This document shows positions 15,820-38,400 of a DNA stretch of 64,000 nucleotides, one piece after another. The DNA comes from Azolla caroliniana (taxonomy: Eukaryota; Plantae; Polypodiophyta). How positions within the stretch are numbered: the stretch's first letter is position 1; every line of letters starts with the position of its first letter. The DNA lies in assembly GCA_043228905.1 (NCBI GenBank), contig JBHGNT010000006.1, positions 21,638,001 through 21,702,000 of the forward strand. The letters are read 5' to 3'. The position numbers were made by a program, and so were the translations under genes. Below the pieces are notes generated by a model. It was not told the DNA's origin and did no database searches. It saw only the letters and a list, made by a program, of their open reading frames with translations.

Positions 15820-17504
15820 TCGGTAACCGGAAGCCTAGTATTAGTTTAGACTACTAGGCAGTTATAGTCTCGTAGTAAGTGTCAGATACTCGTGTGAGCA
15901 TTGAAGTATGCGGTACTTCTGTCAGTCCCACGAGGAGTTGTATAAATAGTGCTACTGAGCACAGCTGTAGAAATATATAGTGTTTTTATCGTTTTTGAAT
16001 ATAGCTTTTACGTTCTGCTCTTTCTGTCTCTCCCGTGTACTCTATGTATTCTCTGATTTCTCCGTTTTCTAACGCTTCCGGAAGTAATCGTTTACATGGT
16101 ATCAGAGCACGAGGGTTGAGAACCTCTACAACCGACAAACGCTTGAAAGCAAACCCTAACAGGTCGTAAGAACAGCAGACAGAGAAGTGATGGATAGAGG
16201 AATGACTAGCTCGCTCCTAGTGGAGAAACTCGATAGATCCAACTACGCATCTTGGTCGTACAAGATGCACTAGTACCTACTTGGGCATGGCTATTGGAGT
16301 TTCGTCGAAGGAACCAACGAAATAGCACCTGATGCGACACATAAGGATTTCCCAGTGTGGGAATAATCGGCAAGCAGAGTGATGTACTACTTCGCGTCCA
16401 GTGTCAAAGACCAGCTGCTGAGCCACATCCGAGACGCCAAGACACCGAAGGAGGCTTGGGGAAACCTGAAGAAGGTATTCGCAGTGAGCACTACAACCCA
16501 GAAGCTGCAACTCCGACAGGAGTTGAGCAATGTCCGACCATAGTTCCTAATATTCGCGTACGTCCAATTTATTGGACGTACGCGAACGTTTGCAAACGTA
16601 CGCGCATGATACGCGATATTCGTTTGCCATTTTTTTTAAATTTTTTGGTTTTTTTAAAAAAAATTTTGGGGTTTTTTTTTGGGTGTTTTTTTTGGGGGTT
16701 TTTTTCTGATGCGTGCACACTGCAGCGTTAACGAGAGTCGAGAGTGAACAGTGAGAGTCGAGAGTGAACAGTGAGAGTCGAGAGTGAACAGTCGAGAGTC
16801 GAGACTGAGCAGTGAGTCGAGAGTGAACAGTGAACAGTCGAGAGTCGAGAGTCGAGACTGAGTCTGAGTCTGATTTTCTGAGAGTCTGAGTCTGAGAGCT
16901 AGAACTTAGAAGCAGAGGCACACAGAGAGAGATTTCTCTCAGCAGCGCAGCAGCAGCCACGGCCCACAGGTATGTACTATGTACTCCCACCTTCCCATTC
17001 GTCTGGACTCTGCACTTACTGAGCAATATGCTGTCACGTAAATTGTAAATTGTAATATGTATTTGCTTGCATGGGCGCTTTCATTGTATTAATTGTCTGT
17101 TGTAAATTGTAATTGCACGGTCGTGCCATATTGATAATAAAATCTGTCTTTTCAATTGTCTCTTTGTGTTCTTGAATTGTAAATTTGTATGTGCATTCTC
17201 TGTATATTAGGCACTGCACTCGACATTAAACCTAATTAAGAAAAGTCTTCAATCAACCACACAAAGCTTTACTTCTGATTTATAGGGTTAATCACAATTA
17301 TAATTCCAAAAAACGTAAAAGCCCTATATGCCCATATGGAGGCTAATGCATTCGGTGATCATGCATTAGCCTTTATAATGTGGAAAACTATATGTAACTT
17401 GTAATTTTAGACTCTAGAGTGGTTGTCTTTAGATGTCTACTTCATTAAAGGAAGTCCTTAGCTAATGAATGCACATGTTTTTGTCTTTTCATCTCATCAT
17501 GAGT

Positions 17505-17770
17505 CCTGTGCAATATGCTGTGCAATTTCTCCGAAATTGAGCAATATGCTGTGCAATTTCTCCGAAATTGAGCACTATGTTGTGCAATTTCTCCGAAATT
17601 GAGCAATATGCTGTGCAATTTCTCCGAAATTGAGCAATATGTTGTGCAATTTCTTCTTCATTTTACACAATCTAAGTGCAATTTCTCCGAAATTGTGCAA
17701 TATGCTTTGCAATTTCTCCGAAACTGAGCAATATGCTGTGCAATTTCTTCTTCATTTTACACAATCTAAG
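17505..17770. repeat. 31-bp minisatellite inside the hAT element
   Basis: GCAATATGCTGTGCAATTTCTCCGAAATTGA repeated about 6-7 times with variants. Confidence 0.85.
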
Positions 17771-18356
17771 TGGAGTCGTGGACTGAGGTGAAAAACAAAA
17801 AAATGCAAAGATGTGTATATATTGTTTGATCAAGTTGTTTTAAATTTACAAGTGTGTATATATTCTCTTAAAATGTGCAAGATGGCTCACTAAATTTTAC
17901 AAACCATGAGGGAATGAAGTTTCCATTGTCTCAATTTTCAAAGCTATCTTCATTGCTTTTAAAAAATCATGTCATCTTTATTTCAAAGAAAGATCAAATA
18001 ATAAGGCATGCATACTTTGATGTGTACATCTTCCGCTTCGCCTTAAGCTTTGGCAAAAGATGTTTTTGTGTATGTACTATGGACAATTTGTTTGCAAATC
18101 TCCTTGGAAGGACATGTTTGCAATTATCATACCAAACAAATTTCACCTTGTTCAAATGTTTTAATATTTGCATTCCAAGGTGAGAGAATCATTCTAAACT
18201 TTGAGAAGGAAAAGCACTTCAAAAGGATTGTAGTTTTATTAAATCAATGTAATTGTAGTTTTCTAATGTTTTTTTTTATATATTCATATCAATGTGATTG
18301 TAGATTTATTAACTCACTTACTAAATTGTTGATTTATAAATCAATGTGATTGTAGT

Positions 18357-20417: not shown

Positions 20418-22068
20418 AGAGGCGTGGATTAACAATTAGTACTATAAATTTAGAGGTTAGAGCTACTTTCTAGGTTAATGTTCATGTTTGAAGTTTTGAA
20501 CTTTGGATAAATTTTGGTTCATGTTTAGAACTTTGGATGCTATTTTGTTAGTTTTCAATGAATTTAAGGTCTTGATTTTTGTCTATAAAAATCTTGATTA
20601 TTTTCTATTTTTCATATTTTTTAAAAAAAATTTAGAGTAATAAAAATAAATATAAATATAAATATAGACGAATGGATTCCAATCATACTTGGAACCATTT
20701 CACGTATGAGTATGATACGAATATTCACGTATGAGTATGACACGTTTGAGACGTATGGCTAGAACTATGTGTCCGACAGAAGGACATGTCGGTGGCGGAT
20801 TACACGGCCCGGATCAAAGAGATCTGTGACTCGCTTGCCTCTATCAATGTTACCGTAGAGGAAGACGAGATGGTACAGGTCTATCTTGGGGGCTTGGTGT
20901 CTAAGTTCAGAGCGTTCCGAACGGCGGTTTGTACGAGGGAGAATACGCCGTCACTCCTTGTAGAGGAGAACCACGCTGGTGCGTCAACTAGCGCACCCAT
21001 TGAAAACCGAATGTTGTACACGGAAGCGGATCGGTCCCGTGGGTGTGGTGGAAGAGGCGGGTCGGCACACAATGGAAGCGGCCGGCAAGACTTGGAACAA
21101 AGGCACAGAGAATGTGCTGACAACAGTTCCGGACCCTCCGGGAGCAGGGGGAGTCATGGCGACATCGGAAGATGGCAAGAGAAAACTGCAACGGAATGTT
21201 GGTACTGTGGCAAAAAGGGCCATAGAGAAAGCGAGTGCTGGAGAAAACGTGTCGATTCAGACAAATCCGGATCCGGCAAGGCCGACAAGGATGGCTGGCA
21301 AAGCTCGCACTACGCGAAGGGATCGGGAGGATCCAAGAACAGTAACGGGCCAGCCTGGGTGATGAAGCACGAGGCGAACTCGATGAAGAAGACCACTTCC
21401 AATGGGAATCGACGTTTCGATTCTCCTTCGTCTCTTCGGCCACAACCGAGTAAGCGCGAATCAATGCAGCAGAAAAATAGGAAACCACAGAGAAAGACAC
21501 GATACACAGGGATTAACGTGGAAAACCCTAAACGGGAAAAACCACGGGAGTACAAGACTCCAAACCACTATACACAGAGAAGTATACAATGGCGAGCTAC
21601 AAGGCGACGACCTTGAGCTCACTGTCTTCGCCACAGGCGGCGGTAATACACAGAGGCGTCGACCTCTTCCTTTCTCTCTCTCTCTCTCTCTCGGCTGCTC
21701 TCACTTCGCTCCCTCTAAGTGGAAAAACAGAAAATGAGCAACAACTTACAGCAGCAATAAACAGTTTGCCCTAAGTCATATTTATACACATATGACTTTC
21801 GGGCTATTTACAAATATAGCCTCAAGGGCCCTTGGCAAACATATTCACAAATATGTCCCCGCATCCGGATCTCTCTCTCCGGGTACATTCGTCATCCGGC
21901 TCCGTAACCGGGATCTTCATCATCCGGCTCCGTAACCGGGGTCTTCATCATCCGGCTCTGTAGCCGGGTACTCTTCATCCTCCGGTTCCGTAACCGCAAC
22001 CGGGCTTGCCGTCATCCATCTCCGGACATCCCATCCGGAGGGACCGTAAATCCCAACAAACTCCCCCT

Positions 22069-25000
22069 TCACTTCGGCATGGGATGTCTTTCCAGTCCGA
22101 CCCTCTTCCGGCACGCTTCTAGCTTGTCGGGTGTGAGCACTTTGGTCAGCATATCTGACCCGTTCTCGTCCGTGTGGATCTTCGTCAGCACGAACTCCTG
22201 GTCTTCTATCCTTTCCCGGATCCAGTGATATCTTCGCTGGATGTGCTTCGTCCGGGAGTGATAGGCCGCGTTCTTCGCAAGGTGGATGGCACTCTGACTG
22301 TCGCAGTAGAGTCGGTACTCCTCCTGCCGGATACCGAGCTCTCTAATGAAGTCCTTCATCCATATTATTTCCTTGCCGGCTTCAACAGCCGCCATGTACT
22401 CCGCCTCCGTGGTTGACAATGCAACCGTCTTCTGCAGCCTCGACTGCCATGAAACAGCTCCCCCTGCATACGTCATCACATACCCTGATGTGGACCGGCT
22501 GGTATCTGCATCAGCCGACATATCCGAATCGGTGAAACCGTCGAGTTCGGGCTTTCCGGAGCCGAATCGGAGGCACACGTTTGCCGTGCCCTTCAGGTAT
22601 CGGAGTATCCATTTGACCGCGTTCCAATGCTCTTTGCCGGGATTGCTCATGTACCGGCTAACCACTCCAACTGCATATCCTATGTCTGGTCGGGTACACA
22701 CCATTGCGTACATCAAGCTCCAGACGGCAGAGGCATATGGTACTTTCATCATGTCCTCCTTCTCAGCCTTTGTCTTGGGGCTTTGCTTGCTGGACAGCTT
22801 GCAGTTTGTCGGGAGTGTTGACCCGACCGGTCTTGCCTCCGACATGTTGAACCGGTGAAGCACCTTTGTCACGTACTTCTCCTGTGACAGCCACAACTGC
22901 TTCTTCTTCCGGTCCCGGATGATGTGCATCCCTAGTATTTGCCTCGCCGGACCCAGGTCTTTCATTGAGAAGGTTCGGTGAAGGGCCTTCTTAAGCATCC
23001 GTATCTTGGCCTGGTCCCGTCCGACGATCAGCATGTCGTCCACGTACAGGAGGAGTATTAGAAAGTCTCCTCCTTCGAACTTCTTCACAAACACGCAGTG
23101 ATCGGACTGCGTTTTGTGGTACCCTTCGTCTGTCATGAAGGAGTCGAACTTCCGGTACCATTGCCGGGGAGCCTGCTTTAGACCGTAAAGGCTCTTCTTC
23201 AACCGGCATACCAGGTGCTCCTTCCCTTTCTTCTCGAATCCTTCCGGTTGCTGCATGTAGATCTCTTCTTCGAGGTCACCGTGAAGGAATGCCGTCTTCA
23301 CGTCCATCTGTTCTACCTCGAGGTCCATGCTTGCCGCTATGCTCAGCACCGTCCGGATGGAGGTCATCTTCACTACCGGGGCAAATATCTCGTCGAAGTC
23401 GACGCCCTTCTTCTGCTGAAACCCCTTCACCACGATCCTGGCTTTGTATCTCGGGGGGTTTCCGGCATCTCCCGGTTTCAGCTTGAACACCCACTTGTTA
23501 CGGAGTGCCCGTTTTCCTTTCGGCAACTCCACAAGTTCATATGTGTGGTTCTCATGCAGGGAATCCATCTCCTCCTGCATGGCACTCAACCACCTGCGGC
23601 TCTGGGTGTCATGCTTTGCTTCTTCAAAGCTCTCCGGCTCCCCCTCGTCGGTTAGCAGCACGTGCTCTGGTTCCGGAAATCTCCGGGGGGCCCTTCTCTC
23701 TCTTAGAGGATATCTCCGTTCCGGGGCTTCGGTAACCGGCTCCTCCGTTTCCTCTTCATCCGAATCCATTTCGGGATCGGGGCCGGTTCCGGTATCAGTT
23801 TCATCTTCCTCGGCCGGTTCTGTTTCTTCACCGTCTTCGGCCGGATCCTCGAGTGCTAACCGGTCCCTTGCCGGTCGGGATTGCTCCTCGTAGAGTTGAT
23901 TCTCACCGGTCGGCTTGGAGCTCTTCATCTTCTTCTCCGACTCCCAGTCGGCGAGTGTCTTGTCCTCCATGAAGATGATATCTCGACTCCTGAATATCTT
24001 CTTGTCGACCGGGTCCCATACTCGGTAGCCGAACTCGTCGTCGCCGTAACCGAGGAATATGCATGGCCGGGTCTTTGGATCTAACTTTCCTCTCCGGTCC
24101 TTTGCCACATGCACGTATGCGAGACACCCGAACACCTTCAGATGCCGGTAAGATACTTCCCTACCGGTCCACACTCTCTGCGGCGTGTCTCCGTCCAAAG
24201 GTACTGAGGGTGATCTGTTTATCACGTACGTCGCCGTCGACATTGCCTCAGCCCAAAACCCCTTGGGTAATTTCGCATGCGCCAGCATACTCCGGACCCT
24301 CTCCATTATGGTCCGGTTCATCCTCTCGGCCAGCCCGTTCAGTTCCGGCGTCTTTGGCACAGTAAACTCGAGTCGGATTCCCTTCGAGCGACAGTACTCC
24401 TGGAACTGCCCCCGGTATTCCCCTCCGTTATCCGCTCGTATCGCTTTCAGCTTCTTGCCGGATTCCCTTTCCACTCTCGCGTGGAGTTCTTTGAAGACGC
24501 CCAACACTTGGTCCTTTGTCTTCAACGGTGCCGTCCACAGCTTCCGGCTGTGATCATCAATGAATGTCACGAAGTACTGGGCTCCGCCATGTGACTTCGT
24601 TTCTACTTGACACACGTCAGTGTGCACCAGCTCCAATGGTGCACTACGTCTCGTCGGTGGCCTTGAGTGGAAGGAGGTCCGGTTTTGCTTACCGGCCAGG
24701 CAGTCGGTGCACTTCTCCAGGTGCACATGCTTCACTGGAATAAGGTTGTCTTCTGCAAGCCTCTTCATCCCCTTCTCACTCATGTGGCACAGTCTCTTGT
24801 GCCACAGCTCACCGGCAGTGTCAGCTGCCACGTTCAACTCTTCCGGACACAACCGGGCATTCATAAGGTACAGTGTGTTGACTTTCCGGGCCCGAGCCAC
24901 TATCAGGCTCCCCTTGCTGAACTTCATTACGCCGTTCCGGATGCTACCTGTGTAGCCTTCATCGTCTAGCCTCCCGGCCGAAATCAGGTTCAATCGAACC

Positions 25001-26142
25001 TCCGGAACGTGTCGGACATCCTTCAGCAGCATTTTGCATCCGGTTGATGTCATCAGCCACACGTCTCCTATGCCGGCAATCCGGCACGTACCTTCATTTC
25101 CCATCCGGACACAGCCATGCACTCCGGCTGTGTAGGATGAGAAGTATCTTCTCTCCGGGGTCAGGTGGAACGATGCTCCGGAATCGACCACCCAGGTCGT
25201 CTCATCGCCGGCAACGTTTAGTTCACCTTCTTCGGTGATGAGCATGATCTCTTCTTCACTTGCCGCGAGTGCCGTCGTTCCTTTCCGGTCCTGCCCTCGC
25301 CGATCCGGACCTCTCCGGTCCGTGGATCCCCGGTATGCACCGTTTCGTTCCGGTGACTTCTTCGAATCGGTGTCGTCGGCTCCGTTGTCTTTTCGGTAAT
25401 GCCGACAATTCTTCCGGAAGTGCCCCGGCTTCCCACAGTGGAAGCATGTGGGTCTTCCTCTTGACTGCGACCGGGTCCCCGACTTCTCCCGTCTTTGCGG
25501 ACTCCGGTTCCATTGTCTTCCCCGATCCGATTCGGTAAGCAGCGCCTTCGGGTCGGAGGCCGGTTCTTTATCTCTCCGGCGCGCTTCTTCGTTCAAAATA
25601 CTTGTCTTTACCGTTTGTAGAGACAAGTTATCTTCGGTGCAGGAGGTGCTGAGAGTCACCACCAAGTTCTCCCAGCTTTCCGGCAATGTACACATCAGAA
25701 TGATGGCTTGCATTGCATCCTCCAGCGGGAACTTGATCGCCGCAAGCTGGTTCACGAATCCCATGAACGTGCTTACGTGTTCCACCATACTCTCGCCATC
25801 CCGGTACTTGAGGTTCACTATCTTCCTCATCAGGGAGGTCCGGTTCAACGCATTCTTCCTCTCGTAGAGGCCCGACAGCTTCCGCCACATCTCGTATGCG
25901 TTGGTGTCGTTCGCCACATGTTGTAGAACGCTCACGTCGACGTATTGCCGGATGGTTGCAACGGCTTTCCGGTTCAGAAGCCTCCATTCCGTCTCAAGTA
26001 CCCCCTTCGGTATTTCCGACCTGTCAATCGGTTCGTACAGGTCCCGAACAATCAGAAGATCCTCCATTTTGATCTTCCAGTCGGCGTAGTTCTGCGCATT
26101 CAGCACCATCATCCCCGGCTGCCCGCTGCTGCCGCCTTCCAT
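22069..26142 (-). CDS. Copia Gag-Pol polyprotein, 1357 aa from the first ATG (gag, Zn knuckle, PR, IN, RT, RNase H)
   Basis: CFHCGKPGHFRKNC, WVVDSGASFH, WHKRLCH..CTDC, HTDV/FIDD/ADNGGEY/NGLAER, MDVKTAFLHG, LYVDDML, ALSTTEAEY, RTKHI. No stops. Confidence 0.96.
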   Translation of the reverse strand: MEGGSSGQPGMMVLNAQNYADWKIKMEDLLIVRDLYEPIDRSEIPKGVLETEWRLLNRKAVATIRQYVDVSVLQHVANDTNAYEMWRKLSGLYERKNALNRTSLMRKIVNLKYRDGESMVEHVSTFMGFVNQLAAIKFPLEDAMQAIILMCTLPESWENLVVTLSTSCTEDNLSLQTVKTSILNEEARRRDKEPASDPKALLTESDRGRQWNRSPQRREKSGTRSQSRGRPTCFHCGKPGHFRKNCRHYRKDNGADDTDSKKSPERNGAYRGSTDRRGPDRRGQDRKGTTALAASEEEIMLITEEGELNVAGDETTWVVDSGASFHLTPERRYFSSYTAGVHGCVRMGNEGTCRIAGIGDVWLMTSTGCKMLLKDVRHVPEVRLNLISAGRLDDEGYTGSIRNGVMKFSKGSLIVARARKVNTLYLMNARLCPEELNVAADTAGELWHKRLCHMSEKGMKRLAEDNLIPVKHVHLEKCTDCLAGKQNRTSFHSRPPTRRSAPLELVHTDVCQVETKSHGGAQYFVTFIDDHSRKLWTAPLKTKDQVLGVFKELHARVERESGKKLKAIRADNGGEYRGQFQEYCRSKGIRLEFTVPKTPELNGLAERMNRTIMERVRSMLAHAKLPKGFWAEAMSTATYVINRSPSVPLDGDTPQRVWTGREVSYRHLKVFGCLAYVHVAKDRRGKLDPKTRPCIFLGYGDDEFGYRVWDPVDKKIFRSRDIIFMEDKTLADWESEKKMKSSKPTGENQLYEEQSRPARDRLALEDPAEDGEETEPAEEDETDTGTGPDPEMDSDEEETEEPVTEAPERRYPLRERRAPRRFPEPEHVLLTDEGEPESFEEAKHDTQSRRWLSAMQEEMDSLHENHTYELVELPKGKRALRNKWVFKLKPGDAGNPPRYKARIVVKGFQQKKGVDFDEIFAPVVKMTSIRTVLSIAASMDLEVEQMDVKTAFLHGDLEEEIYMQQPEGFEKKGKEHLVCRLKKSLYGLKQAPRQWYRKFDSFMTDEGYHKTQSDHCVFVKKFEGGDFLILLLYVDDMLIVGRDQAKIRMLKKALHRTFSMKDLGPARQILGMHIIRDRKKKQLWLSQEKYVTKVLHRFNMSEARPVGSTLPTNCKLSSKQSPKTKAEKEDMMKVPYASAVWSLMYAMVCTRPDIGYAVGVVSRYMSNPGKEHWNAVKWILRYLKGTANVCLRFGSGKPELDGFTDSDMSADADTSRSTSGYVMTYAGGAVSWQSRLQKTVALSTTEAEYMAAVEAGKEIIWMKDFIRELGIRQEEYRLYCDSQSAIHLAKNAAYHSRTKHIQRRYHWIRERIEDQEFVLTKIHTDENGSDMLTKVLTPDKLEACRKRVGLERHPMPK

Positions 26143-26665
26143 TTTCTGCACTGCCGTCGCTCTGATACCAATTTGTTGGGAATCGACGTTTCGATTCTCC
26201 TTCGTCTCTTCGGCCACAACCGAGTAAGCGCGAATCAATGCAGCAGAAAAATAGGAAACCACAGAGAAAGACACGATACACAGGGATTAACGTGGAAAAC
26301 CCTAAACGGGAAAAACCACGGGAGTACAAGACTCCAAACCACTATACACAGAGAAGTATACAATGGCGAGCTACAAGGCGACAACCTTGAGCTCACTGTC
26401 TTCGCCACAGGCGGCGGTAATACACAGAGGCGTCGACCTCTTCCTTTCTCTCTCTCTCTCTCTCTCGGCTGCTCTCACTTCGCTCCCTCTAAGTGGAAAA
26501 ACAGAAAATGAGCAACAACTTACAGCAGCAATAAACAGTTTGCCCTAAGTCATATTTATACACATATGACTTTCGGGCTATTTACAAATATAGCCTCAAG
26601 GGCCCTTGGCAAACATATTCACAAATATGTCCCCGCATCCGGATCTCTCTCTCCGGGTACATTCG

Positions 26666-27994
26666 TCATCCGGCTCCGGGTACGTTCAGCTCTTCCGGAC
26701 ACAACCAGGCATTCATAAGGTACAGTGTGTTGACTTTCCGGGCCCGAGCCACTATCAGGCTTCCCTTGCTGAACTTCATTACGCCGTTCCGGATGCTACC
26801 TGTGTAGCCTTCATCGTCTAGCCTCCCGGCCGAAATCAGGTTTAATCGAACCTCCGGAACGTGTCGGACATCCTTCAGCAGCATTTTGCATCCGGTCGGG
26901 GTTGTCAACCATACGTCTCCTATGCCGGCAATCCGGCACGTACCTTCATTTCCCATCCGAACACAGCCATGTTCACCGGCTGTGTAGGATGAGAAGTATC
27001 TCCTTTCCGGGGTCAGGTGGAACGACGCTCCGGAATCGACCACCCAGGTAGTCTCATCGCCGGCAATGTTTAGTTCACCTTCTTCGGTGATGAGCATGAT
27101 CTCCTCTTCACTTGCCGCGAGTGCCGTCGTTCCTTTCCGGTCCTGCCCTCGCCGATCCGGACCTCTCCGGTCCGTGGCTCCCCGGTATGCACCGTTTCGT
27201 TCCGGTGACTTCTTCGAATCGGTGTCGTCGGCTCCGTTGTCTTTTCGGTAATGCCGACAATTCTTCCGGAAGTGCCCCGGCTTCCCACAGTGGAAGCATG
27301 TGGGTCTTCCTCTTGACTGCGACCGGGTCCCCGACTTCTCCCGTCTTTGCGGACTCCGGTTCCATTGTCTTCCCCGATCCGATTCGGTAAGCAGCGCCTT
27401 CGGGTCGGAGGCCGGTTCTTTATCTCTCCGGCGCGCTTCTTCGTTCAAAATACTTGTCTTTACCGTTTGTAGAGACAAGTTATCTTCGGTGCAGGAGGTG
27501 CTGAGAGTCACCACCAAGTTCTCCCAGCTTTCCGGCAATGTACACATCAGAATGATGGCTTGCATTGCATCCTCCAGCGGGAACTTGATCGCCGCAAGCT
27601 GGTTCACGAATCCCATGAACGTGCTTACGTGTTCCACCATACTCTCGCCGTCCCGGTACTTGAGGTTCACTATCTTCCTCATCAGGGAGGTCCGGTTCAA
27701 CGCATTCTTCCTCTCGTAGAGGCCCGACAGCTTCCGCCACATCTCGTATGCGTTGGTGTCGTTCGCCACATGTTGTAGAACGCTCACGTCGACGTATTGC
27801 CGGATGGTTGCAACGGCTTTCCGGTTCAGAAGCCTCCATTCCGTCTCAAGTACCCCCTTCGGTATTTCCGACCTGTCAATCGGTTCGTACAGGTCCCGAA
27901 CAATCAGAAGATCCTCCATTTTGATCTTCCAGTCGGCGTAGTTCTGCGCATTCAGCACCATCATCCCCGGCTGCCCGCTGCTGCCGCCTTCCAT
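26666..27994 (-). CDS. Gag+protease-only ORF, 442 aa (array copy)
   Basis: Same ATG as gag-pol, with knuckle and DSGAS intact. Ends ...EELNVPGAG* in the downstream truncated LTR. Confidence 0.8.
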   Translation of the reverse strand: MEGGSSGQPGMMVLNAQNYADWKIKMEDLLIVRDLYEPIDRSEIPKGVLETEWRLLNRKAVATIRQYVDVSVLQHVANDTNAYEMWRKLSGLYERKNALNRTSLMRKIVNLKYRDGESMVEHVSTFMGFVNQLAAIKFPLEDAMQAIILMCTLPESWENLVVTLSTSCTEDNLSLQTVKTSILNEEARRRDKEPASDPKALLTESDRGRQWNRSPQRREKSGTRSQSRGRPTCFHCGKPGHFRKNCRHYRKDNGADDTDSKKSPERNGAYRGATDRRGPDRRGQDRKGTTALAASEEEIMLITEEGELNIAGDETTWVVDSGASFHLTPERRYFSSYTAGEHGCVRMGNEGTCRIAGIGDVWLTTPTGCKMLLKDVRHVPEVRLNLISAGRLDDEGYTGSIRNGVMKFSKGSLIVARARKVNTLYLMNAWLCPEELNVPGAG

Positions 27995-28517
27995 TTTCTG
28001 CACTGCCGTCGCTCTGATACCAATTTGTTGGGAATCGACGTTTCGATTCTCCTTCGTCTCTTCGGCCACAACCGAGTAAGCGCGAATCAATGCAGCAGAA
28101 AAATAGGAAACCACAGAGAAAGACACGATACACAGGGATTAACGTGGAAAACCCTAAACGGGAAAAACCACGGGAGTACAAGACTCCAAACCACTATACA
28201 CAGAGAAGTATACAATGGCGAGCTACAAGGCGACAACCTTGAGCTCACTGTCTTCGCCACAGGCGGCGGTAATACACAGAGGCGTCGACCTCTTCCTTTC
28301 TCTCTCTCTCTCTCTCTCGGCTGCTCTCACTTCGCTCCCTCTAAGTGGAAAAACAGAAAATGAGCAACAACTTACAGCAGCAATAAACAGTTTGCCCTAA
28401 GTCATATTTATACACATATGACTTTCGGGCTATTTACAAATATAGCCTCAAGGGCCCTTGGCAAACATATTCACAAATATGTCCCCGCATCCGGATCTCT
28501 CTCTCCGGGTACATTCG

Positions 28518-29846
28518 TCATCCGGCTCCGGGTACGTTCAGCTCTTCCGGACACAACCAGGCATTCATAAGGTACAGTGTGTTGACTTTCCGGGCCCGAG
28601 CCACTATCAGGCTTCCCTTGCTGAACTTCATTACGCCGTTCCGGATGCTACCTGTGTAGCCTTCATCGTCTAGCCTCCCGGCCGAAATCAGGTTTAATCG
28701 AACCTCCGGAACGTGTCGGACATCCTTCAGCAGCATTTTGCATCCGGTCGGGGTTGTCAACCATACGTCTCCTATGCCGGCAATCCGGCACGTACCTTCA
28801 TTTCCCATCCGAACACAGCCATGTTCACCGGCTGTGTAGGATGAGAAGTATCTCCTTTCCGGGGTCAGGTGGAACGACGCTCCGGAATCGACCACCCAGG
28901 TAGTCTCATCGCCGGCAATGTTTAGTTCACCTTCTTCGGTGATGAGCATGATCTCCTCTTCACTTGCCGCGAGTGCCGTCGTTCCTTTCCGGTCCTGCCC
29001 TCGCCGATCCGGACCTCTCCGGTCCGTGGCTCCCCGGTATGCACCGTTTCGTTCCGGTGACTTCTTCGAATCGGTGTCGTCGGCTCCGTTGTCTTTTCGG
29101 TAATGCCGACAATTCTTCCGGAAGTGCCCCGGCTTCCCACAGTGGAAGCATGTGGGTCTTCCTCTTGACTGCGACCGGGTCCCCGACTTCTCCCGTCTTT
29201 GCGGACTCCGGTTCCATTGTCTTCCCCGATCCGATTCGGTAAGCAGCGCCTTCGGGTCGGAGGCCGGTTCTTTATCTCTCCGGCGCGCTTCTTCGTTCAA
29301 AATACTTGTCTTTACCGTTTGTAGAGACAAGTTATCTTCGGTGCAGGAGGTGCTGAGAGTCACCACCAAGTTCTCCCAGCTTTCCGGCAATGTACACATC
29401 AGAATGATGGCTTGCATTGCATCCTCCAGCGGGAACTTGATCGCCGCAAGCTGGTTCACGAATCCCATGAACGTGCTTACGTGTTCCACCATACTCTCGC
29501 CGTCCCGGTACTTGAGGTTCACTATCTTCCTCATCAGGGAGGTCCGGTTCAACGCATTCTTCCTCTCGTAGAGGCCCGACAGCTTCCGCCACATCTCGTA
29601 TGCGTTGGTGTCGTTCGCCACATGTTGTAGAACGCTCACGTCGACGTATTGCCGGATGGTTGCAACGGCTTTCCGGTTCAGAAGCCTCCATTCCGTCTCA
29701 AGTACCCCCTTCGGTATTTCCGACCTGTCAATCGGTTCGTACAGGTCCCGAACAATCAGAAGATCCTCCATTTTGATCTTCCAGTCGGCGTAGTTCTGCG
29801 CATTCAGCACCATCATCCCCGGCTGCCCGCTGCTGCCGCCTTCCAT
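28518..29846 (-). CDS. Gag+protease-only ORF, 442 aa (array copy)
   Basis: Translation identical to 26666-27994. Confidence 0.8.
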   Translation of the reverse strand: MEGGSSGQPGMMVLNAQNYADWKIKMEDLLIVRDLYEPIDRSEIPKGVLETEWRLLNRKAVATIRQYVDVSVLQHVANDTNAYEMWRKLSGLYERKNALNRTSLMRKIVNLKYRDGESMVEHVSTFMGFVNQLAAIKFPLEDAMQAIILMCTLPESWENLVVTLSTSCTEDNLSLQTVKTSILNEEARRRDKEPASDPKALLTESDRGRQWNRSPQRREKSGTRSQSRGRPTCFHCGKPGHFRKNCRHYRKDNGADDTDSKKSPERNGAYRGATDRRGPDRRGQDRKGTTALAASEEEIMLITEEGELNIAGDETTWVVDSGASFHLTPERRYFSSYTAGEHGCVRMGNEGTCRIAGIGDVWLTTPTGCKMLLKDVRHVPEVRLNLISAGRLDDEGYTGSIRNGVMKFSKGSLIVARARKVNTLYLMNAWLCPEELNVPGAG

Positions 29847-30369
29847 TTTCTGCACTGCCGTCGCTCTGATACCAATTTGTTGGGAATCGACGTTTCGATT
29901 CTCCTTCGTCTCTTCGGCCACAACCGAGTAAGCGCGAATCAATGCAGCAGAAAAATAGGAAACCACAGAGAAAGACACGATACACAGGGATTAACGTGGA
30001 AAACCCTAAACGGGAAAAACCACGGGAGTACAAGACTCCAAACCACTATACACAGAGAAGTATACAATGGCGAGCTACAAGGCGACGACCTTGAGCTCAC
30101 TGTCTTCGCCACAGGCGGCGGTAATACACAGAGGCGTCGACCTCTTCCTTTCTCTCTCTCTCTCTCTCTCGGCTGCTCTCACTTCGCTCCCTCTAAGTGG
30201 AAAAACAGAAAATGAGCAACAACTTACAGCAGCAATAAACAGTTTGCCCTAAGTCATATTTATACACATATGACTTTCGGGCTATTTACAAATATAGCCT
30301 CAAGGGCCCTTGGCAAACATATTCACAAATATGTCCCCGCATCCGGATCTCTCTCTCCGGGTACATTCG

Positions 30370-31698
30370 TCATCCGGCTCCGGGTACGTTCAGCTCTTCC
30401 GGACACAACCAGGCATTCATAAGGTACAGTGTGTTGACTTTCCGGGCCCGAGCCACTATCAGGCTTCCCTTGCTGAACTTCATTACGCCGTTCCGGATGC
30501 TACCTGTGTAGCCTTCATCGTCTAGCCTCCCGGCCGAAATCAGGTTTAATCGAACCTCCGGAACGTGTCGGACATCCTTCAGCAGCATTTTGCATCCGGT
30601 CGGGGTTGTCAACCATACGTCTCCTATGCCGGCAATCCGGCACGTACCTTCATTTCCCATCCGAACACAGCCATGTTCACCGGCTGTGTAGGATGAGAAG
30701 TATCTCCTTTCCGGGGTCAGGTGGAACGACGCTCCGGAATCGACCACCCAGGTAGTCTCATCGCCGGCAATGTTTAGTTCACCTTCTTCGGTGATGAGCA
30801 TGATCTCCTCTTCACTTGCCGCGAGTGCCGTCGTTCCTTTCCGGTCCTGCCCTCGCCGATCCGGACCTCTCCGGTCCGTGGCTCCCCGGTATGCACCGTT
30901 TCGTTCCGGTGACTTCTTCGAATCGGTGTCGTCGGCTCCGTTGTCTTTTCGGTAATGCCGACAATTCTTCCGGAAGTGCCCCGGCTTCCCACAGTGGAAG
31001 CATGTGGGTCTTCCTCTTGACTGCGACCGGGTCCCCGACTTCTCCCGTCTTTGCGGACTCCGGTTCCATTGTCTTCCCCGATCCGATTCGGTAAGCAGCG
31101 CCTTCGGGTCGGAGGCCGGTTCTTTATCTCTCCGGCGCGCTTCTTCGTTCAAAATACTTGTCTTTACCGTTTGTAGAGACAAGTTATCTTCGGTGCAGGA
31201 GGTGCTGAGAGTCACCACCAAGTTCTCCCAGCTTTCCGGCAATGTACACATCAGAATGATGGCTTGCATTGCATCCTCCAGCGGGAACTTGATCGCCGCA
31301 AGCTGGTTCACGAATCCCATGAACGTGCTTACGTGTTCCACCATACTCTCGCCGTCCCGGTACTTGAGGTTCACTATCTTCCTCATCAGGGAGGTCCGGT
31401 TCAACGCATTCTTCCTCTCGTAGAGGCCCGACAGCTTCCGCCACATCTCGTATGCGTTGGTGTCGTTCGCCACATGTTGTAGAACGCTCACGTCGACGTA
31501 TTGCCGGATGGTTGCAACGGCTTTCCGGTTCAGAAGCCTCCATTCCGTCTCAAGTACCCCCTTCGGTATTTCCGACCTGTCAATCGGTTCGTACAGGTCC
31601 CGAACAATCAGAAGATCCTCCATTTTGATCTTCCAGTCGGCGTAGTTCTGCGCATTCAGCACCATCATCCCCGGCTGCCCGCTGCTGCCGCCTTCCAT
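30370..31698 (-). CDS. Gag+protease-only ORF, 442 aa (array copy)
   Basis: Translation identical to 26666-27994. Confidence 0.8.
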   Translation of the reverse strand: MEGGSSGQPGMMVLNAQNYADWKIKMEDLLIVRDLYEPIDRSEIPKGVLETEWRLLNRKAVATIRQYVDVSVLQHVANDTNAYEMWRKLSGLYERKNALNRTSLMRKIVNLKYRDGESMVEHVSTFMGFVNQLAAIKFPLEDAMQAIILMCTLPESWENLVVTLSTSCTEDNLSLQTVKTSILNEEARRRDKEPASDPKALLTESDRGRQWNRSPQRREKSGTRSQSRGRPTCFHCGKPGHFRKNCRHYRKDNGADDTDSKKSPERNGAYRGATDRRGPDRRGQDRKGTTALAASEEEIMLITEEGELNIAGDETTWVVDSGASFHLTPERRYFSSYTAGEHGCVRMGNEGTCRIAGIGDVWLTTPTGCKMLLKDVRHVPEVRLNLISAGRLDDEGYTGSIRNGVMKFSKGSLIVARARKVNTLYLMNAWLCPEELNVPGAG

Positions 31699-32221
31699 TT
31701 TCTGCACTGCCGTCGCTCTGATACCAATTTGTTGGGAATCGACGTTTCGATTCTCCTTCGTCTCTTCGGCCACAACCGAGTAAGCGCGAATCAATGCAGC
31801 AGAAAAATAGGAAACCACAGAGAAAGACACGATACACAGGGATTAACGTGGAAAACCCTAAACGGGAAAAACCACGGGAGTACAAGACTCCAAACCACTA
31901 TACACAGAGAAGTATACAATGGCGAGCTACAAGGCGACGACCTTGAGCTCACTGTCTTCGCCACAGGCGGCGGTAATACACAGAGGCGTCGACCTCTTCC
32001 TTTCTCTCTCTCTCTCTCTCTCGGCTGCTCTCACTTCGCTCCCTCTAAGTGGAAAAACAGAAAATGAGCAACAACTTACAGCAGCAATAAACAGTTTGCC
32101 CTAAGTCATATTTATACACATATGACTTTCGGGCTATTTACAAATATAGCCTCAAGGGCCCTTGGCAAACATATTCACAAATATGTCCCCGCATCCGGAT
32201 CTCTCTCTCCGGGTACATTCG

Positions 32222-33550
32222 TCATCCGGCTCCGGGTACGTTCAGCTCTTCCGGACACAACCAGGCATTCATAAGGTACAGTGTGTTGACTTTCCGGGCC
32301 CGAGCCACTATCAGGCTTCCCTTGCTGAACTTCATTACGCCGTTCCGGATGCTACCTGTGTAGCCTTCATCGTCTAGCCTCCCGGCCGAAATCAGGTTTA
32401 ATCGAACCTCCGGAACGTGTCGGACATCCTTCAGCAGCATTTTGCATCCGGTCGGGGTTGTCAACCATACGTCTCCTATGCCGGCAATCCGGCACGTACC
32501 TTCATTTCCCATCCGAACACAGCCATGTTCACCGGCTGTGTAGGATGAGAAGTATCTCCTTTCCGGGGTCAGGTGGAACGACGCTCCGGAATCGACCACC
32601 CAGGTAGTCTCATCGCCGGCAATGTTTAGTTCACCTTCTTCGGTGATGAGCATGATCTCCTCTTCACTTGCCGCGAGTGCCGTCGTTCCTTTCCGGTCCT
32701 GCCCTCGCCGATCCGGACCTCTCCGGTCCGTGGCTCCCCGGTATGCACCGTTTCGTTCCGGTGACTTCTTCGAATCGGTGTCGTCGGCTCCGTTGTCTTT
32801 TCGGTAATGCCGACAATTCTTCCGGAAGTGCCCCGGCTTCCCACAGTGGAAGCATGTGGGTCTTCCTCTTGACTGCGACCGGGTCCCCGACTTCTCCCGT
32901 CTTTGCGGACTCCGGTTCCATTGTCTTCCCCGATCCGATTCGGTAAGCAGCGCCTTCGGGTCGGAGGCCGGTTCTTTATCTCTCCGGCGCGCTTCTTCGT
33001 TCAAAATACTTGTCTTTACCGTTTGTAGAGACAAGTTATCTTCGGTGCAGGAGGTGCTGAGAGTCACCACCAAGTTCTCCCAGCTTTCCGGCAATGTACA
33101 CATCAGAATGATGGCTTGCATTGCATCCTCCAGCGGGAACTTGATCGCCGCAAGCTGGTTCACGAATCCCATGAACGTGCTTACGTGTTCCACCATACTC
33201 TCGCCGTCCCGGTACTTGAGGTTCACTATCTTCCTCATCAGGGAGGTCCGGTTCAACGCATTCTTCCTCTCGTAGAGGCCCGACAGCTTCCGCCACATCT
33301 CGTATGCGTTGGTGTCGTTCGCCACATGTTGTAGAACGCTCACGTCGACGTATTGCCGGATGGTTGCAACGGCTTTCCGGTTCAGAAGCCTCCATTCCGT
33401 CTCAAGTACCCCCTTCGGTATTTCCGACCTGTCAATCGGTTCGTACAGGTCCCGAACAATCAGAAGATCCTCCATTTTGATCTTCCAGTCGGCGTAGTTC
33501 TGCGCATTCAGCACCATCATCCCCGGCTGCCCGCTGCTGCCGCCTTCCAT
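32222..33550 (-). CDS. Gag+protease-only ORF, 442 aa (array copy directly behind the full 5' LTR)
   Basis: Translation identical to 26666-27994. Confidence 0.8.
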   Translation of the reverse strand: MEGGSSGQPGMMVLNAQNYADWKIKMEDLLIVRDLYEPIDRSEIPKGVLETEWRLLNRKAVATIRQYVDVSVLQHVANDTNAYEMWRKLSGLYERKNALNRTSLMRKIVNLKYRDGESMVEHVSTFMGFVNQLAAIKFPLEDAMQAIILMCTLPESWENLVVTLSTSCTEDNLSLQTVKTSILNEEARRRDKEPASDPKALLTESDRGRQWNRSPQRREKSGTRSQSRGRPTCFHCGKPGHFRKNCRHYRKDNGADDTDSKKSPERNGAYRGATDRRGPDRRGQDRKGTTALAASEEEIMLITEEGELNIAGDETTWVVDSGASFHLTPERRYFSSYTAGEHGCVRMGNEGTCRIAGIGDVWLTTPTGCKMLLKDVRHVPEVRLNLISAGRLDDEGYTGSIRNGVMKFSKGSLIVARARKVNTLYLMNAWLCPEELNVPGAG

Positions 33551-36500
33551 TTTCTGCACTGCCGTCGCTCTGATACCAATTTGTTGGGAATCGACGTTTC
33601 GATTCTCCTTCGTCTCTTCGGCCACAACCGAGTAAGCGCGAATCAATGCAGCAGAAAAATAGGAAACCACAGAGAAAGACACGATACACAGGGATTAACG
33701 TGGAAAACCCTAAACGGGAAAAACCACGGGAGTACAAGACTCCAAACCACTATACACAGAGAAGTATACAATGGCGAGCTACAAGGCGACGACCTTGAGC
33801 TCACTGTCTTCGCCACAGGCGGCGGTAATACACAGAGGCGTCGACCTCTTCCTTTCTCTCTCTCTCTCTCTCTCGGCTGCTCTCACTTCGCTCCCTCTAA
33901 GTGGAAAAACAGAAAATGAGCAACAACTTACAGCAGCAATAAACAGTTTGCCCTAAGTCATATTTATACACATATGACTTTCGGGCTATTTACAAATATA
34001 GCCTCAAGGGCCCTTGGCAAACATATTCACAAATATGTCCCCGCATCCGGATCTCTCTCTCCGGGTACATTCGTCATCCGGCTCCGTAACCGGGATCTTC
34101 ATCATCCGGCTCCGTAACCGGGGTCTTCATCATCCGGCTCCGTAGCCGGGTACTCTTCATCCTCCGGTTCCGTAACCGCAACCGGGCTTGCCGTCATCCA
34201 TCTCCGGACATCCCATCCGGAGGGACCGTAAATCCCAACAGATGAACGTATTACACGTTTCGAGAATCACGAAAAACCTGGTGTCGGTCAGACAGATCGT
34301 CGACCAAGGGATGCAGGTGCGGTTTACGCACCTTGGGTGCTTCATCGAGGAAGAGGGCTAGATTATTGCGCAAGGGCGCAGAGACAGGAGGATGTTTATC
34401 CTCTACACCAATGACGTCGGCACCACTCTGTTTGCAAAAGGACAGAAGGTCGAATCGGACATCGACCTATGGCACAAGCGGATAGGCCACGTCAATTACC
34501 GGAGGCTTCAAGACTTGCAAACCAAACAAGTTGTTTTCGGTTTGCCGAAGTTCAGCGGCCGGAAGGCCCAAGTATGTGACGCCTACCAACTCGGGAAGCA
34601 ACACCGGCTTCCATCCCCTACCGAACGTAACCGGAGCCGTAACAAGCTCGACCTTATCCATTCGGATGTGTGGGGACCGGCACAGAATGTTAGTCTTCGC
34701 AGGAATCGATACATCGTCTCCTTCATCGACGACTACCTCATTGAGCGGAAGAGTGAAGTCTTCGAGTGTTTCCGGAGTCTCCAAAGCATGGTGGAATGGG
34801 AATCGGAGAGGAAGATCAAATGCTTGCGGTCGGATGGCGGGAAAGAATATTTTTCTGGCCAATTCAACAGTTATCTGCAACAAAAGGGAATTCGGTGAGA
34901 GTTCAGCTGCAGATACACACTGCAATAGAACGGTGTTGCCGAGAGGAAGAACCGGTCGATTATTGATGCGGCAAGGGCAATGCTGAAGGAGAAGAGCATG
35001 CCCAAATTCTACTAGGCGGAGGCAGTACGAACGGCTGTCTACATCTAGAATCGGATCGGTGACAAGGTGTCAGCTCACGAACTGTATTTCAGGCGCAAGC
35101 CGAATTTGAGAGACCTTAAGATCTTCGGCAACATTGCATATGTGCATGTACCGGATGAGAAGCGGAGGAAGTTGGATGCAAAATCGGAAAAATGCATCCT
35201 AATCGGCTATGCTCAAGAGCAAAAGGGGGTTATAAGTGTTATAACCCCCGGACAAAGCATGTCCGAGTTAGTCGAGATGTCGAGTTCGATGAATCGGCAT
35301 CGTGGTACTCCTTACCGACTCCGATTTGCGAATCCGACCCGATGCCGGTGGATGAGGCTAGTGAGCCTGAACCGGCCCAGGTAGATGATGATGTAGCGTG
35401 GACTCAGGATGAGAGTCCGGAATCGTTTCGGTTGAGCGGGCCGAATGAGAGACTGAGTCAATCAGACAAGTCCGATGAGGAACCCGCGAGTAGTGGAGAC
35501 TATGCCGTGCTCTCCCCGCGCAAGGAACCGAGGAGACGGTTCACGCGCAAAGAGAAAGGGAAGAAAAAGATGCCGGAATTTGAAACCGGCAACGATGAGT
35601 CGGATTGGTGTGCATCCGACTCCGGCAAGGAGAAAGGCGGCATCTTCCGCAACGAAAACCGAACCGGCCAAGAAAGGCCTTAAACCGGGTAACGGTGAGT
35701 TACGCTGGTCCACCCGCCAGAAGGTTCCCATCATGCGGTATGGGTACAATGAGTACATGGCGCATCACTATGCATACATGACTAAAGTGGCGGAAGTATG
35801 TGAGCCGGAGAGCTACACAGAAGCGGCAAAGGACGCAAATTGGCGTGCCGCTATGGAGGAAGAAATGCGGACACTTGATGTCAACGAGACATAGGACCTA
35901 GTTGACCCTCCCCGTCACTGTAAACCGATCGGATGCAAGTGGGTGTACAAGGTAAAGTACAACGCTGACGGTTCAGTTAACCGATACAAGGCCCGGTTAG
36001 TGGCGAAGGGATACGCGCAAACCCACAGAATCGACTACGACGAAACCTTCGCTCCTGTAGCTAAGATGACGACGGTTCATGTGGTGCTGGCGGTTGCTGC
36101 AACAAGAGGGTGGCATCTTCACCAGATGGATGTGAAGAATGCGTTTCTTCAGGGTGATCTTGAAGAAGAAGTCTTTATGACTCCGCCCCCCGGTTTTCAA
36201 TCGGAGATGAAAAAGTCGGCGGTATGTTGGCTGAAGAAGTCGTTGTACAGCCTGAAGCAAGCCCCTCGAGCTTGGAATGCAAAGATCACGTACCAGTTGC
36301 GTAAGATGGGGTTTGCGGTCTCCAAGTCCGACTCTTCGTTGTTCATCCGGCAAGGCTCAGCCGGTCCGGTATGTATCCTGTTGTATGTTGATGATCTAGT
36401 CATCACCGGACCGGGTCTTCCAGAAGTCAACCGCGTCAAGTCCTAGTTGTTGGACGCATTTGAGATGAAGGACCTGGGGGACCTTCATTATTTTCTTGGG

Positions 36501-38400
36501 ATCAAGGTGATCCGAACCCCTGATGGCATATTGCTCTCACAACGACATTACGTCTTGAATATGCTGTACAAGTTTGACATGACAGAATGCCGACCTAGCT
36601 CCACACCCTTGGACCGGAACCAGAAGCTTCGTCCCAACTCCCAGACCGGCCTGCAATGAGAAACGGTTCCGACAAATTGTCGGAAGTCTTGTATTTGACC
36701 ATCACCCGACCCGACATCAGCTATCCGGTCGGAGTGATAAGCCAGTTCATACAAAAGCCGACCGTGGAGCACCTTCAGTGCGCGCAGCGGATTCTGCAAT
36801 ATGTAAGCAGCACGAAGGACCGGGGCTTGTTATACCGGCGCGGTATACCCGAAGAGCTGGTCGGTTACACAGATGCCGACTAGGCCGACGATGCATCAAA
36901 TCGCCGATCAACCTCCGGTTACATGTTTTCCCTAGGTAGCGCGGTTGTTGCGTGGAGCAGTAAAAAGCAGCCAACAGTTGCTCTGTCGAGCACTGAAGCT
37001 GAGTATCGGGGCGCTACCATTGCAACCTATGAAGCCATTTGGATTCGGCGATTGCTGCAAGACCTACGGATTGAGGTACCGACCCCGATTCTGGTCTACT
37101 GCGACAACATAAGCAGCATGCAACTCGCCAAGAACCCCGTATTCCATGCTCGCACAAAGCACATAGAAGTGCACTATGACTTTGTGCGTGAGCGTGTCCT
37201 GAGCGGTGAGGTCGAACTTCGGTATGTTGACACGGATCGGCAAGTTGCCGACATCTTCACCAAACCGCTTGGATTGGACAAGTTGCAGCACTTCACCGAA
37301 ATGCTTGGTGTTCAGCATCTCGACGTGCCACACTTGAGGGGGAGAACGGGCAAAGACACGGGCAAAGACACCGGAACGGGCAAAGGCAAAGAGACTGCTG
37401 ATTGCGCCGGTGAGGGAAGAACCGACAAAGGGAGAGTCAAGAAGAAGAAAGGAGTTGAGTCGACAAGCAAAGTCGACACGTTCGAACAAGTCGGAACAAG
37501 CGGCAGTGACGACAGAGTCAAGAAGGACAGAGCCGTCCGAAGGAAGAAGGCCAAGACCCGGACATGGTCCAATGTGATGAAGGGCCTGGAACCAGAAGAC
37601 GAATCGGGAGCAATCGATTCGGACAAGAGCTGGAACGAATCGGAGACAGTCGATTTGGTTCAAGAGACAGATTCGGAAGAACCGGATCAATTCAAGGCCA
37701 AGAGGATGAGAAGGCAGCGAAAGTCGATGCCAACACGAAGGAATCGGCAAACCGGAACGCGCCGAAGTCACAGCAGCAAGGGAGCTGAATTGGGCATGTT
37801 GAACAGACAAGCCGACCGAGGAGGTCGAGGCGCGCAGAACAAGAGGGGTCGCCGCAAATAGAACCAGACCGGACGAGGAGCGCGCAAGCAAGGCGGAACG
37901 ATGCCAGGAGAAGTTGGTTGGAAGAACCGACTGCCACAGAGGCTGACACTAGGATCCAACCTCAAGTTGAGCTTGAGGGGGAGTGTTGAGCGGCAAGCTC
38001 AACTGGAGCCGGATAGGCTGGATAAGCCTGAGCTGGTGGGCGAGATGGATCGGTAAGCTGGTGAGCAACCGAGCCGGCAAGCAACAGAGCCAGTGAGCTG
38101 GGGAGCCGGTTAGTCGGATCCAATCGGTAACCGGAAGCCTAGTATTAGTTTAGACTTCTAGGCAGTTATAGTCTTGTAGTAAGTGTCAAATACTCGTGTG
38201 AGCATTGAAGTACGCGATACTTCTGTCAGTCCCATGAGGACTTGTATAAATAGTGCTACTAAGCACAGTTGTAGAAATATATAGTGTTTTTATCATTTTT
38301 GAATATAGCTTTTACGTTCTGCTCTCTCTGTCTCTCCCGTGTACTCTGTGTATTCTCTACTTTCTCTGTTTTCTAACGCTTCCGCAAGTAATCGTTTACA

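What the first reader, a model, noticed from the sequence alone, without database searches (positions are those of the whole stretch)
24830..34240. Copia element carrying four extra LTR-PBS-gag-protease cassettes in front of its gag-pol (possible Gag amplifier or regulator)
Seen on the - strand: full 5' LTR, then four repeats of [PBS, gag+PR ORF, U3-truncated LTR], then PBS, intact gag-pol, PPT and 3' LTR. The period is exactly 1852 bp. Each cassette keeps an open 442-aa ORF that ends just after the protease and before the integrase zinc-binding region, using a TGA inside the next LTR. The internal LTRs lose ~150 nt of U3 (most of the 27-bp repeat array) but keep TATAAATA, R and U5, so each unit could be a self-contained transcription unit with no PPT. 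Established: Copia elements have one ORF yet need excess Gag, usually via spliced or prematurely polyadenylated RNA. Gag-only non-autonomous elements (TR-GAG), tandem TRIM arrays and truncated-Gag restriction (yeast Ty1 p22) are known. Inference: this locus could hard-wire a 5:1 gag:pol dosage, or act as a dominant-negative or siRNA source. The only complete promoter now drives a Gag-PR-only unit, not gag-pol. It may equally be a neutral accident.
Basis: partly seen in the sequence, partly recalled or inferred. Interest (0 to 1): 0.82.

Follow-up and report, generated by a model that had tools for sequence, protein, structure and literature searches.

The report
Gag-protease tandem array inside Copia element
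A very young plant jumping gene carries four near-identical extra copies of its front end (promoter core, shell gene and protease) ahead of its full coding region; the first extra copy likely arose from a copying slip between two family members and was likely multiplied by unequal recombination, with no sign that it is a selected way of making more shell protein.

Summary
The structure is real: 5' LTR, four 1852-bp units [PBS, gag-protease ORF, U3-truncated LTR], then PBS, open gag-pol, PPT and 3' LTR. (1) The cassette ORF is a mosaic: 22 of its 23 differences from the element's own gag-pol lie in the last 500 bp before the junction, mostly synonymous (pN/pS 0.14), so two functional family members contributed. 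(2) The junction sits on microhomology with U3. (3) The 3' LTR lacks its last 3 bases, there is no TSD, and about 158 bp of target is missing. Best reading: one template-switch accident, probably in the cDNA, then expansion by unequal recombination. This is the LTR-internal~LTR seed known from maize CRM4TR, here reaching through gag-protease and still attached to gag-pol. Nothing supports a selected Gag amplifier: the copies are too young to show selection, a stop follows in every frame, and ordinary progeny would not inherit the array. Untested: other loci with this junction, transcription, true copy number. The scan noted a related integrase-deleted Copia array in another genome (e1-7240541). 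Boldest open reading: a PPT-less defective RNA hitch-hiking on gag-pol (about 12%).

The parts
33582..34240 (-). Full 5' LTR, 659 bp, TG...CA; 28-bp U3 repeat array at 34070-34178; TATAAATA at LTR position 273
33567..33578 (-). PBS (initiator-Met type, label recalled); identical copies at 31715, 29863, 28011 and 26159
32222..33550 (-). Cassette 1 gag-protease ORF, 442 aa, stop inside the next LTR
32237..32734 (-). Block from a second family member, abutting the junction: 22 differences from 24829-25326; same block in all four cassettes
32229..32243 (-). Protease-to-U3 junction; 13 of 14 bases match LTR positions 169-182, then the sequence continues from LTR position 155; repeated every 1852 bp
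31730..32234 (-). Internal LTR 1, LTR positions 155-659 (same allele as the outer LTRs at 31939)
30370..31698 (-). Cassette 2 gag-protease ORF
29878..30382 (-). Internal LTR 2 (outer-LTR allele at 30087)
28518..29846 (-). Cassette 3 gag-protease ORF
28026..28530 (-). Internal LTR 3 (derived allele at 28235)
26666..27994 (-). Cassette 4 gag-protease ORF
26174..26678 (-). Internal LTR 4 (derived allele at 26383), directly upstream of gag-pol
22069..26142 (-). Open gag-pol, 1357 aa: gag, zinc knuckle, protease, integrase, RT (RVT_2), RNase H motifs; Copia order
22061..22070 (-). Polypurine tract, the only one in front of an LTR
21403..22058 (-). 3' LTR, 1 difference from the 5' LTR in 656 bp, last 3 nt missing, no TSD
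14651..38400 (+). Older, different Copia element that received the insertion (LTR pair 94% over 281 bp); about 158 bp around its protease motif is absent at the insertion site relative to the paralogue at 54018-54175

Best explanation
The array is likely a neutral accident of one very young Copia insertion: a template switch likely joined the end of the protease region to the middle of U3 over a short microhomology while two different family members were being copied, and unequal recombination likely expanded that one unit to four. Shown: architecture, mosaic block, microhomology, damaged U5 end, near-identity of units. Inferred step 1: the nascent strand used two parents, one for the last 500 bp of the cassette and one for the same stretch of gag-pol, and slipped from U3 to the protease end, giving LTR-gag-PR~LTR-gag-pol-LTR. 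I favour reverse transcription of two co-packaged RNAs (about 60:40 over chromosomal break repair) because the same insertion also has an intact U3 end but a clipped U5 end, no TSD and a target deletion, as in uncoordinated integration of an abnormal cDNA. Inferred step 2: the 1852-bp direct repeat grew stepwise; one LTR mutation shared by units 3 and 4 but not 1 and 2 marks at least one duplication after the first. Predicted behaviour if not silenced: each LTR core would start a ~1.8-kb gag-PR RNA ending in the next LTR, and internal LTR 4 would start a normal genomic RNA whose progeny are ordinary single elements without the array.
For: Mosaic: 1 difference in the first 850 bp vs 22 in the next 497 (Fisher p=3e-9), pN/pS 0.14 in that block (p=2e-6), so the second parent was a functional member, not a decayed copy or sequencing error. 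At 4 of the 5 block sites listed, alleles other than the gag-pol one make up 1-60% of summed family depth in three DNA runs, consistent with the cassette alleles being standing family variation. Junction microhomology: 5 of 6 bases before the joint, chance about 0.5% for a random joint. Youth: 1 difference between outer LTRs, about 60 thousand years (95% range 1.5-330) at an assumed, recalled 1.3e-8 per site per year. End damage and missing target; a retroviral provirus with a clipped CA end and an abnormal target junction is described in PMC2857682 (passages). Precedents: pairwise recombination between co-packaged Copia members (PMC5668417, passages); three-LTR template-switch complexes (PMC1950507, whole text); LTR-UTR~LTR seeds that expand locally (PMC3648361, parts 1-4 of 6); polymorphic tandem LTR elements (PMC11899658, parts 1-4 of 6).
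Against: No whole genome was held, so uniqueness of the junction is untested. Template-switch complexes as described keep their TSD; this one has none, so the single-integration origin rests on LTR identity only. The break falls in the short stretch between protease and the integrase zinc finger (codons 398-447 of 1357, about 4% of the ORF), which is tidy, though not remarkable for one event chosen for looking tidy. Which parent is the recombinant cannot be fixed: the data fit either the cassette or the gag-pol copy carrying the foreign block.
Confidence: 0.66

Rival explanations
1. PPT-less hitch-hiker: the unit is a defective-interfering-like RNA (R-U5-PBS-gag-PR-truncated U3-R) that can prime minus strand but has no PPT and no left attachment site, so it spreads only by being chained in front of a full genome through repeated R-to-R strand transfers or read-through RNA; this locus is one product.
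For: The order of parts is exactly what such chaining predicts: all units upstream, one PPT at the far end, outer LTRs near-identical. The conserved promoter core is kept. The damaged U5 end points to an odd cDNA. Weak terminators and tandem transcripts are proposed in PMC11899658; concatenated transcripts are reported for Cassandra (passages).
Against: Four units plus gag-pol in one round needs many templates or a 12.8-kb RNA against 5.4 kb normally. One locus only. Among 57 contigs of relatives, 17 run past the junction codon into the pre-integrase region and none shows LTR-like DNA right after gag-PR, but these are distant relatives on short contigs.
Confidence: 0.12
2. By-product regulator: the array arose by accident but its RNAs supply excess Gag-protease or small RNAs that damp the family, like yeast Ty1 p22.
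For: Four open ORFs with likely promoters. CRM4TR monomers that keep the TATA box give polyadenylated RNA. p22 restriction exists (PMC4599808, PMC4551931; search listing only).
Against: [quoted passage not shown] The family is large and diverse (14,120-33,377 contigs laid per DNA run), so four more gag copies change little. The locus is nested in other transposons.
Confidence: 0.07
3. Selected Gag amplifier: the element hard-wires a 5:1 gag:pol dosage to improve particle formation.
For: Single-ORF Copia elements need excess Gag (PMC5580714, passages); all four frames are open and end before the integrase zinc finger.
Against: No divergence among units on which selection could be seen; stops follow in every frame; protease is amplified too; progeny from internal LTR 4 would not carry the array, and Gag acts in trans, so selection on the element has no handle (inference).
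Confidence: 0.04
4. Assembly inflation: the unit exists but the number four is wrong.
For: Units 1-2 and 3-4 are identical pairs; no read spans the array in the data seen (one search holds short contigs only); sequencing platform unknown.
Against: A novel junction plus a 22-site, mostly synonymous haplotype cannot be made by an assembler; the LTR variant splits the units 2+2, so at least two distinct units exist unless that base is an error; no N and no indels between units.
Confidence: 0.1

Closest known systems
Maize CRM4TR / CRM1TR retrotransposon-derived tandem repeats (PMC3648361; parts 1-4 of 6 read)
   Same: Monomer starts inside the LTR (CRM4TR in U3, keeping the TATA box) and ends in the internal region; seed is an internal~LTR illegitimate junction; local expansion; some monomers carry an end segment from a sister subfamily; TATA-containing monomers are transcribed.
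   Different: Those are Gypsy, non-coding (LTR+UTR), tens to about a hundred monomers, 1-4 My old. Here Copia, the monomer holds a whole open gag-protease frame, only four units, and the parent gag-pol is still attached.
Tandem LTR-retrotransposons sharing internal LTRs (PMC11899658, parts 1-4 of 6) and template-switch complexes (PMC1950507, whole text)
   Same: Alternating LTRs and internal regions, near-identical outer LTRs, one insertion, internal regions from slightly different parents.
   Different: Described units have complete internal regions and complete LTRs and typically a TSD. Here four units lack IN-RT-RH, PPT and 154 nt of U3, and there is no TSD.
TR-GAG and GAG/PROT non-autonomous elements (PMC4350172, PMC13570524; passages)
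   Same: Coding content reduced to gag (TR-GAG1 ORF 433 aa) or gag plus protease.
   Different: Those are dispersed multi-copy elements with two LTRs, PBS, PPT and TSD. These units have no PPT, no left LTR end and are known from one locus.
Tandem Cassandra TRIM arrays (PMC7215508; passages) and integrase-independent Tf1 tandems (PMC11042837; passages)
   Same: Head-to-tail units sharing LTRs, formed by template switching, cDNA recombination into resident copies, or unequal exchange; Tf1-Tf2 hybrid tandems are mosaics.
   Different: Cassandra is non-coding with PPT; Tf1 tandems are mostly whole elements in yeast.
Copia subgenomic gag RNA (EVD shGAG; PMC5580714, passages)
   Same: An RNA that would give Gag without integrase and RT.
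   Different: Made by splicing out the protease and premature termination from one element, not by DNA copies; protease is excluded there and kept here.

Membership tests
Ty1/Copia LTR retrotransposon | Single ORF with gag-PR-IN-RT-RH order, RVT_2-type RT | tested here: met
   Pfam; motifs
Ty1/Copia LTR retrotransposon | LTRs, PBS, PPT | tested here: met
   3' LTR lacks its last 3 nt
Ty1/Copia LTR retrotransposon | 5-bp target-site duplication | tested here: not met
   Flanks differ and about 158 bp of target is missing; concerns this insertion, not the family
Tork / Tnt1-like lineage | RT phylogeny with reference Tork elements | not tested
   Only a hint: several homologues are named 'TNT 1-94' by their sources; lineage label recalled
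Tandem LTR-RT sharing internal LTRs | Alternating internal regions and LTRs, starting and ending with an LTR | tested here: met
Tandem LTR-RT / template-switch complex | Complete internal regions, flanking TSD | tested here: not met
   Four of five internal regions end at the protease; no TSD
Template-switch complex | Outer LTRs near-identical | tested here: met
   1 difference in 656 bp
Retrotransposon-derived tandem repeat (CRM4TR type) | Monomer = 5'-truncated LTR plus start of internal region, joined by an illegitimate junction, homogeneous and head-to-tail | tested here: met
Retrotransposon-derived tandem repeat (CRM4TR type) | Restricted to one or two loci | not testable with these tools
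   No genome held
TR-GAG / GAG-PROT non-autonomous element | PPT before a complete 3' LTR, own TSD | tested here: not met
   No purine run of 8 or more before any internal LTR; U3 end missing
TR-GAG / GAG-PROT non-autonomous element | Dispersed copies of the same structure | tested here: inconclusive
   0 of 57 relatives' contigs show it, but they are distant and short
Truncated-Gag restriction factor (Ty1 p22 type) | Expressed truncated Gag that inhibits transposition in trans | not testable with these tools
   No RNA of this locus seen; Gag here is whole, not truncated

The most novel reading that the evidence does not exclude
The 1852-bp unit is a defective-interfering Copia RNA without PPT or left attachment site that supplies Gag and protease and survives only by being chained in front of a full gag-pol genome during reverse transcription, giving insertions with variable numbers of units: a non-autonomous element that parasitises its helper in cis.
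Probability: 0.12. Interest if true: 0.75.

Novelty: new variant of a known kind. Interest (0 to 1): 0.36.

Why it matters
As a neutral accident it is a clean, very early snapshot of how an LTR retrotransposon seeds a tandem repeat: the junction, both parents' sequence, the damaged integration end and the first duplication steps are all still readable, and the monomer is protein-coding. That bears on the open question of whether LTR tandems form during retrotransposition or afterwards (left open in PMC11899658). If the junction recurs at other loci, it would be a new way for a PPT-less element to spread.

Tried and rejected
Whole-genome search: no genome held. Sequencing runs: 21 listed, best share 0.60, no RNA holder on record; no evidence on expression either way. 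Contigs of X1, X4, X5, X18 laid on 32150-35000: no listed piece bridges the junction or the insertion site, but only 32 pieces were shown, 69,464 were not, and contigs drop rare variants, so this says nothing about absence. X18 (RNA is a guess) gave 21 mostly 90-95% pieces, i.e. other family members. Protein search (126 hits, 120 listed): ordinary Copia gag-pol fragments; I did not check their C-termini for LTR-derived tails. Relatives' loci (57): L001 stops in the protease region and L007 just past it, followed by unrelated DNA, not an LTR. Earlier scan notes: nothing near this place, by sequence, or with all seven words. Autointegration circle rejected: the internal LTRs start at U3 position 155, not at an LTR end. 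Plain tandem duplication of this element alone rejected as sufficient: it cannot give the 22-site block. Decayed-copy donor rejected: pN/pS 0.14. A crude splice-donor and AT-content scan found no difference between cassette and gag-pol and no clear intron signal; inconclusive. A TSD control on neighbouring elements was attempted but not completed. No fold or complex prediction was run; the proteins are standard.
Full report
Observation. The window is transposon-rich plant DNA with no N. On the - strand lie a 659-bp 5' LTR (33582-34240), four units of 1852 bp, a 1357-aa gag-pol (22069-26142), a PPT and a 3' LTR (21403-22058). Each unit is PBS, a 442-aa ORF with Pfam gag, zinc knuckle and protease domains, and LTR positions 155-659. 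The ORF follows gag-pol to codon 438, ten codons before the integrase zinc finger, and stops in the LTR. The host plant is not identified; earlier scan notes on this genome point to a fern and to mosses (e1-10619883, e1-10619271; unchecked).

Age and reality. The outer LTRs differ at 1 of 656 sites. The four units differ from each other at one site, in the LTR, with units 1-2 carrying the outer-LTR base and units 3-4 a derived base. With an assumed, recalled rate of 1.3e-8 this gives about 60 thousand years (95% range 1.5-330 thousand; about twice that at 7e-9). An assembler could miscount identical units but could not invent the junction or the haplotype below, and the 2+2 split argues for at least two real units.

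Two parents. Cassette and gag-pol differ at 23 sites over the shared 1347 bp: 1 in the first 850 and 22 in the last 497, directly against the junction (Fisher p=3e-9). In that block pS is 0.125 and pN 0.017 (ratio 0.14, p=2e-6), the signature of divergence between two functional members. Contigs from three DNA runs show a large, diverse family (14,120-33,377 contigs laid per run). Of the 40 variant sites displayed (131 more hidden), five are cassette-versus-gag-pol sites; at all five the listed family variant is the gag-pol base, and other bases make up 1-60% of depth at four and under 0.1% at one. At five displayed sites in the shared 5' gag and two in U3 the window's base is often the minority too. 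So either copy could be the recombinant; summed contig depth is not copy number.

Junction. The protease end shares 5 of 6 bases with U3 positions 169-174 and then follows U3 175-182 (13 of 14 overall) before continuing from position 155 over a repeated 5-mer. A random joint shows such a match about 0.5% of the time. This is the mark of a template switch or microhomology-mediated joining. A parent whose U3 had one more short repeat would explain the second slip; U3 length variants are common in the family (joints table).

Insertion site. The element interrupts an older Copia. Its U3 end is precise, but the U5 end lacks the last 3 bases, there is no TSD, and about 158 bp is missing relative to a paralogue elsewhere in the window. 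For so young an insertion, a later deletion ending 3 bases inside the LTR is unlikely (inference), so the damage probably dates from integration. A retroviral provirus with a clipped CA end and an abnormal target junction, and deletions from uncoordinated integration, are described in PMC2857682 (passages). Two rare features in one insertion favour an abnormal cDNA, but break repair that copied an ectopic member cannot be excluded.

Promoters. Among 13 of 57 relatives' loci with a PBS and enough upstream DNA, 4 match the window's LTR around the TATA box (188-311), 2 match the first 34 bases, and 0 match 35-154. The internal LTRs keep the conserved core and lose the variable repeat array and the left attachment end. 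Each unit could therefore be transcribed, and so could gag-pol from internal LTR 4. That RNA would be a normal genome whose progeny regain two full LTRs and lack the array (inference from standard reverse transcription). Only a 12.8-kb read-through RNA or repeated strand transfers could pass the array on.

Why not a Gag amplifier. Open frames are the default at this age. After the joint a stop comes within 19, 4 and 26 codons in the three frames. Plant Copia elements already obtain excess Gag by splicing out the protease and terminating early (PMC5580714, passages); whether this family does was not resolved. Gag acts in trans and the array is not inherited by ordinary progeny, so selection on the element has little handle. 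Of 57 relatives' contigs, 17 run past the junction codon into the pre-integrase region and none shows an LTR after gag-PR; they are distant (at most 93% protein identity) and short, so this is weak.

Comparison. The monomer has the form of maize CRM4TR: U3-truncated LTR with TATA plus the start of the internal region, seeded by an illegitimate junction, expanded locally, sometimes with an end segment from a sister subfamily (PMC3648361, parts 1-4 of 6). Tandem elements sharing LTRs are common and polymorphic, and their origin is left open (PMC11899658, parts 1-4 of 6). Template-switch dimers (PMC1950507, whole text), pairwise recombination in Onsen (PMC5668417, passages), Cassandra arrays (PMC7215508, passages) and Tf1 hybrid tandems (PMC11042837, passages) supply each step. 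TR-GAG and GAG/PROT elements (PMC4350172, PMC13570524; passages) share the coding content but need a PPT and disperse; the units fail that test. Ten literature searches listed no report of an array of PPT-less gag-protease units in front of an open gag-pol; I read only some of the listed papers, no supplements (the tandem tables of PMC11899658 could hold such cases), and subscription journals are mostly absent. The scan's own notes include a tandem array of integrase-deleted Copia copies in a fungus (e1-7240541) and a gag-protease-only element (e1-7275771); these gave leads to two papers and are not independent support.

Verdict. A real, young, single-locus-looking tandem amplification inside a Copia element; a new variant of retrotransposon-derived tandem repeats, most likely neutral (0.66). 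Left open: whether the junction occurs at other loci or in other samples, the true unit number, and expression. The hitch-hiker reading (0.12) is decided by one genome search.

Noticed in passing
window 18357-20417 (+): Open 686-aa hAT transposase ORF (DUF659 and hAT dimerisation domain) nested in the 5' part of the host Copia element.
   Followed up: partly
window 52449-58576: Second, older copy of the host Copia family (77-84% identical), used as the empty-site comparison.
   Followed up: partly
window 45311-46746 (-): Decayed RT-RNase H and LTR fragment of a more distant relative of the array-bearing family (73-80% DNA identity).
   Followed up: no
window 14911-15613 and 13729-14231: A (TC)n-rich tract with short repeats interrupts the host element's 5' LTR; an (ATGT)n-rich tract lies upstream.
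   Followed up: no
window 2735-3485, 17507-17772, 39113-39600: Local tandem repeats of 196, 31/94 and 93 bp.
   Followed up: no
window 11478-12560 (-): 360-aa ORF with no Pfam match.
   Followed up: partly
L001, L003, L009, L024, L026: Contigs of relatives read pol end, one LTR, then gag: collapsed LTRs in short-read assembly, one-LTR circles or true tandems; not distinguished.
   Followed up: no
L005:2851-3583: A related gag stops after the zinc knuckle and is followed by a decayed tandem repeat of about 138 bp.
   Followed up: no
window 21403-38000: CpG observed/expected is about 1.0-1.1 in the young element and in the older host element alike, so there is little CpG decay here.
   Followed up: no
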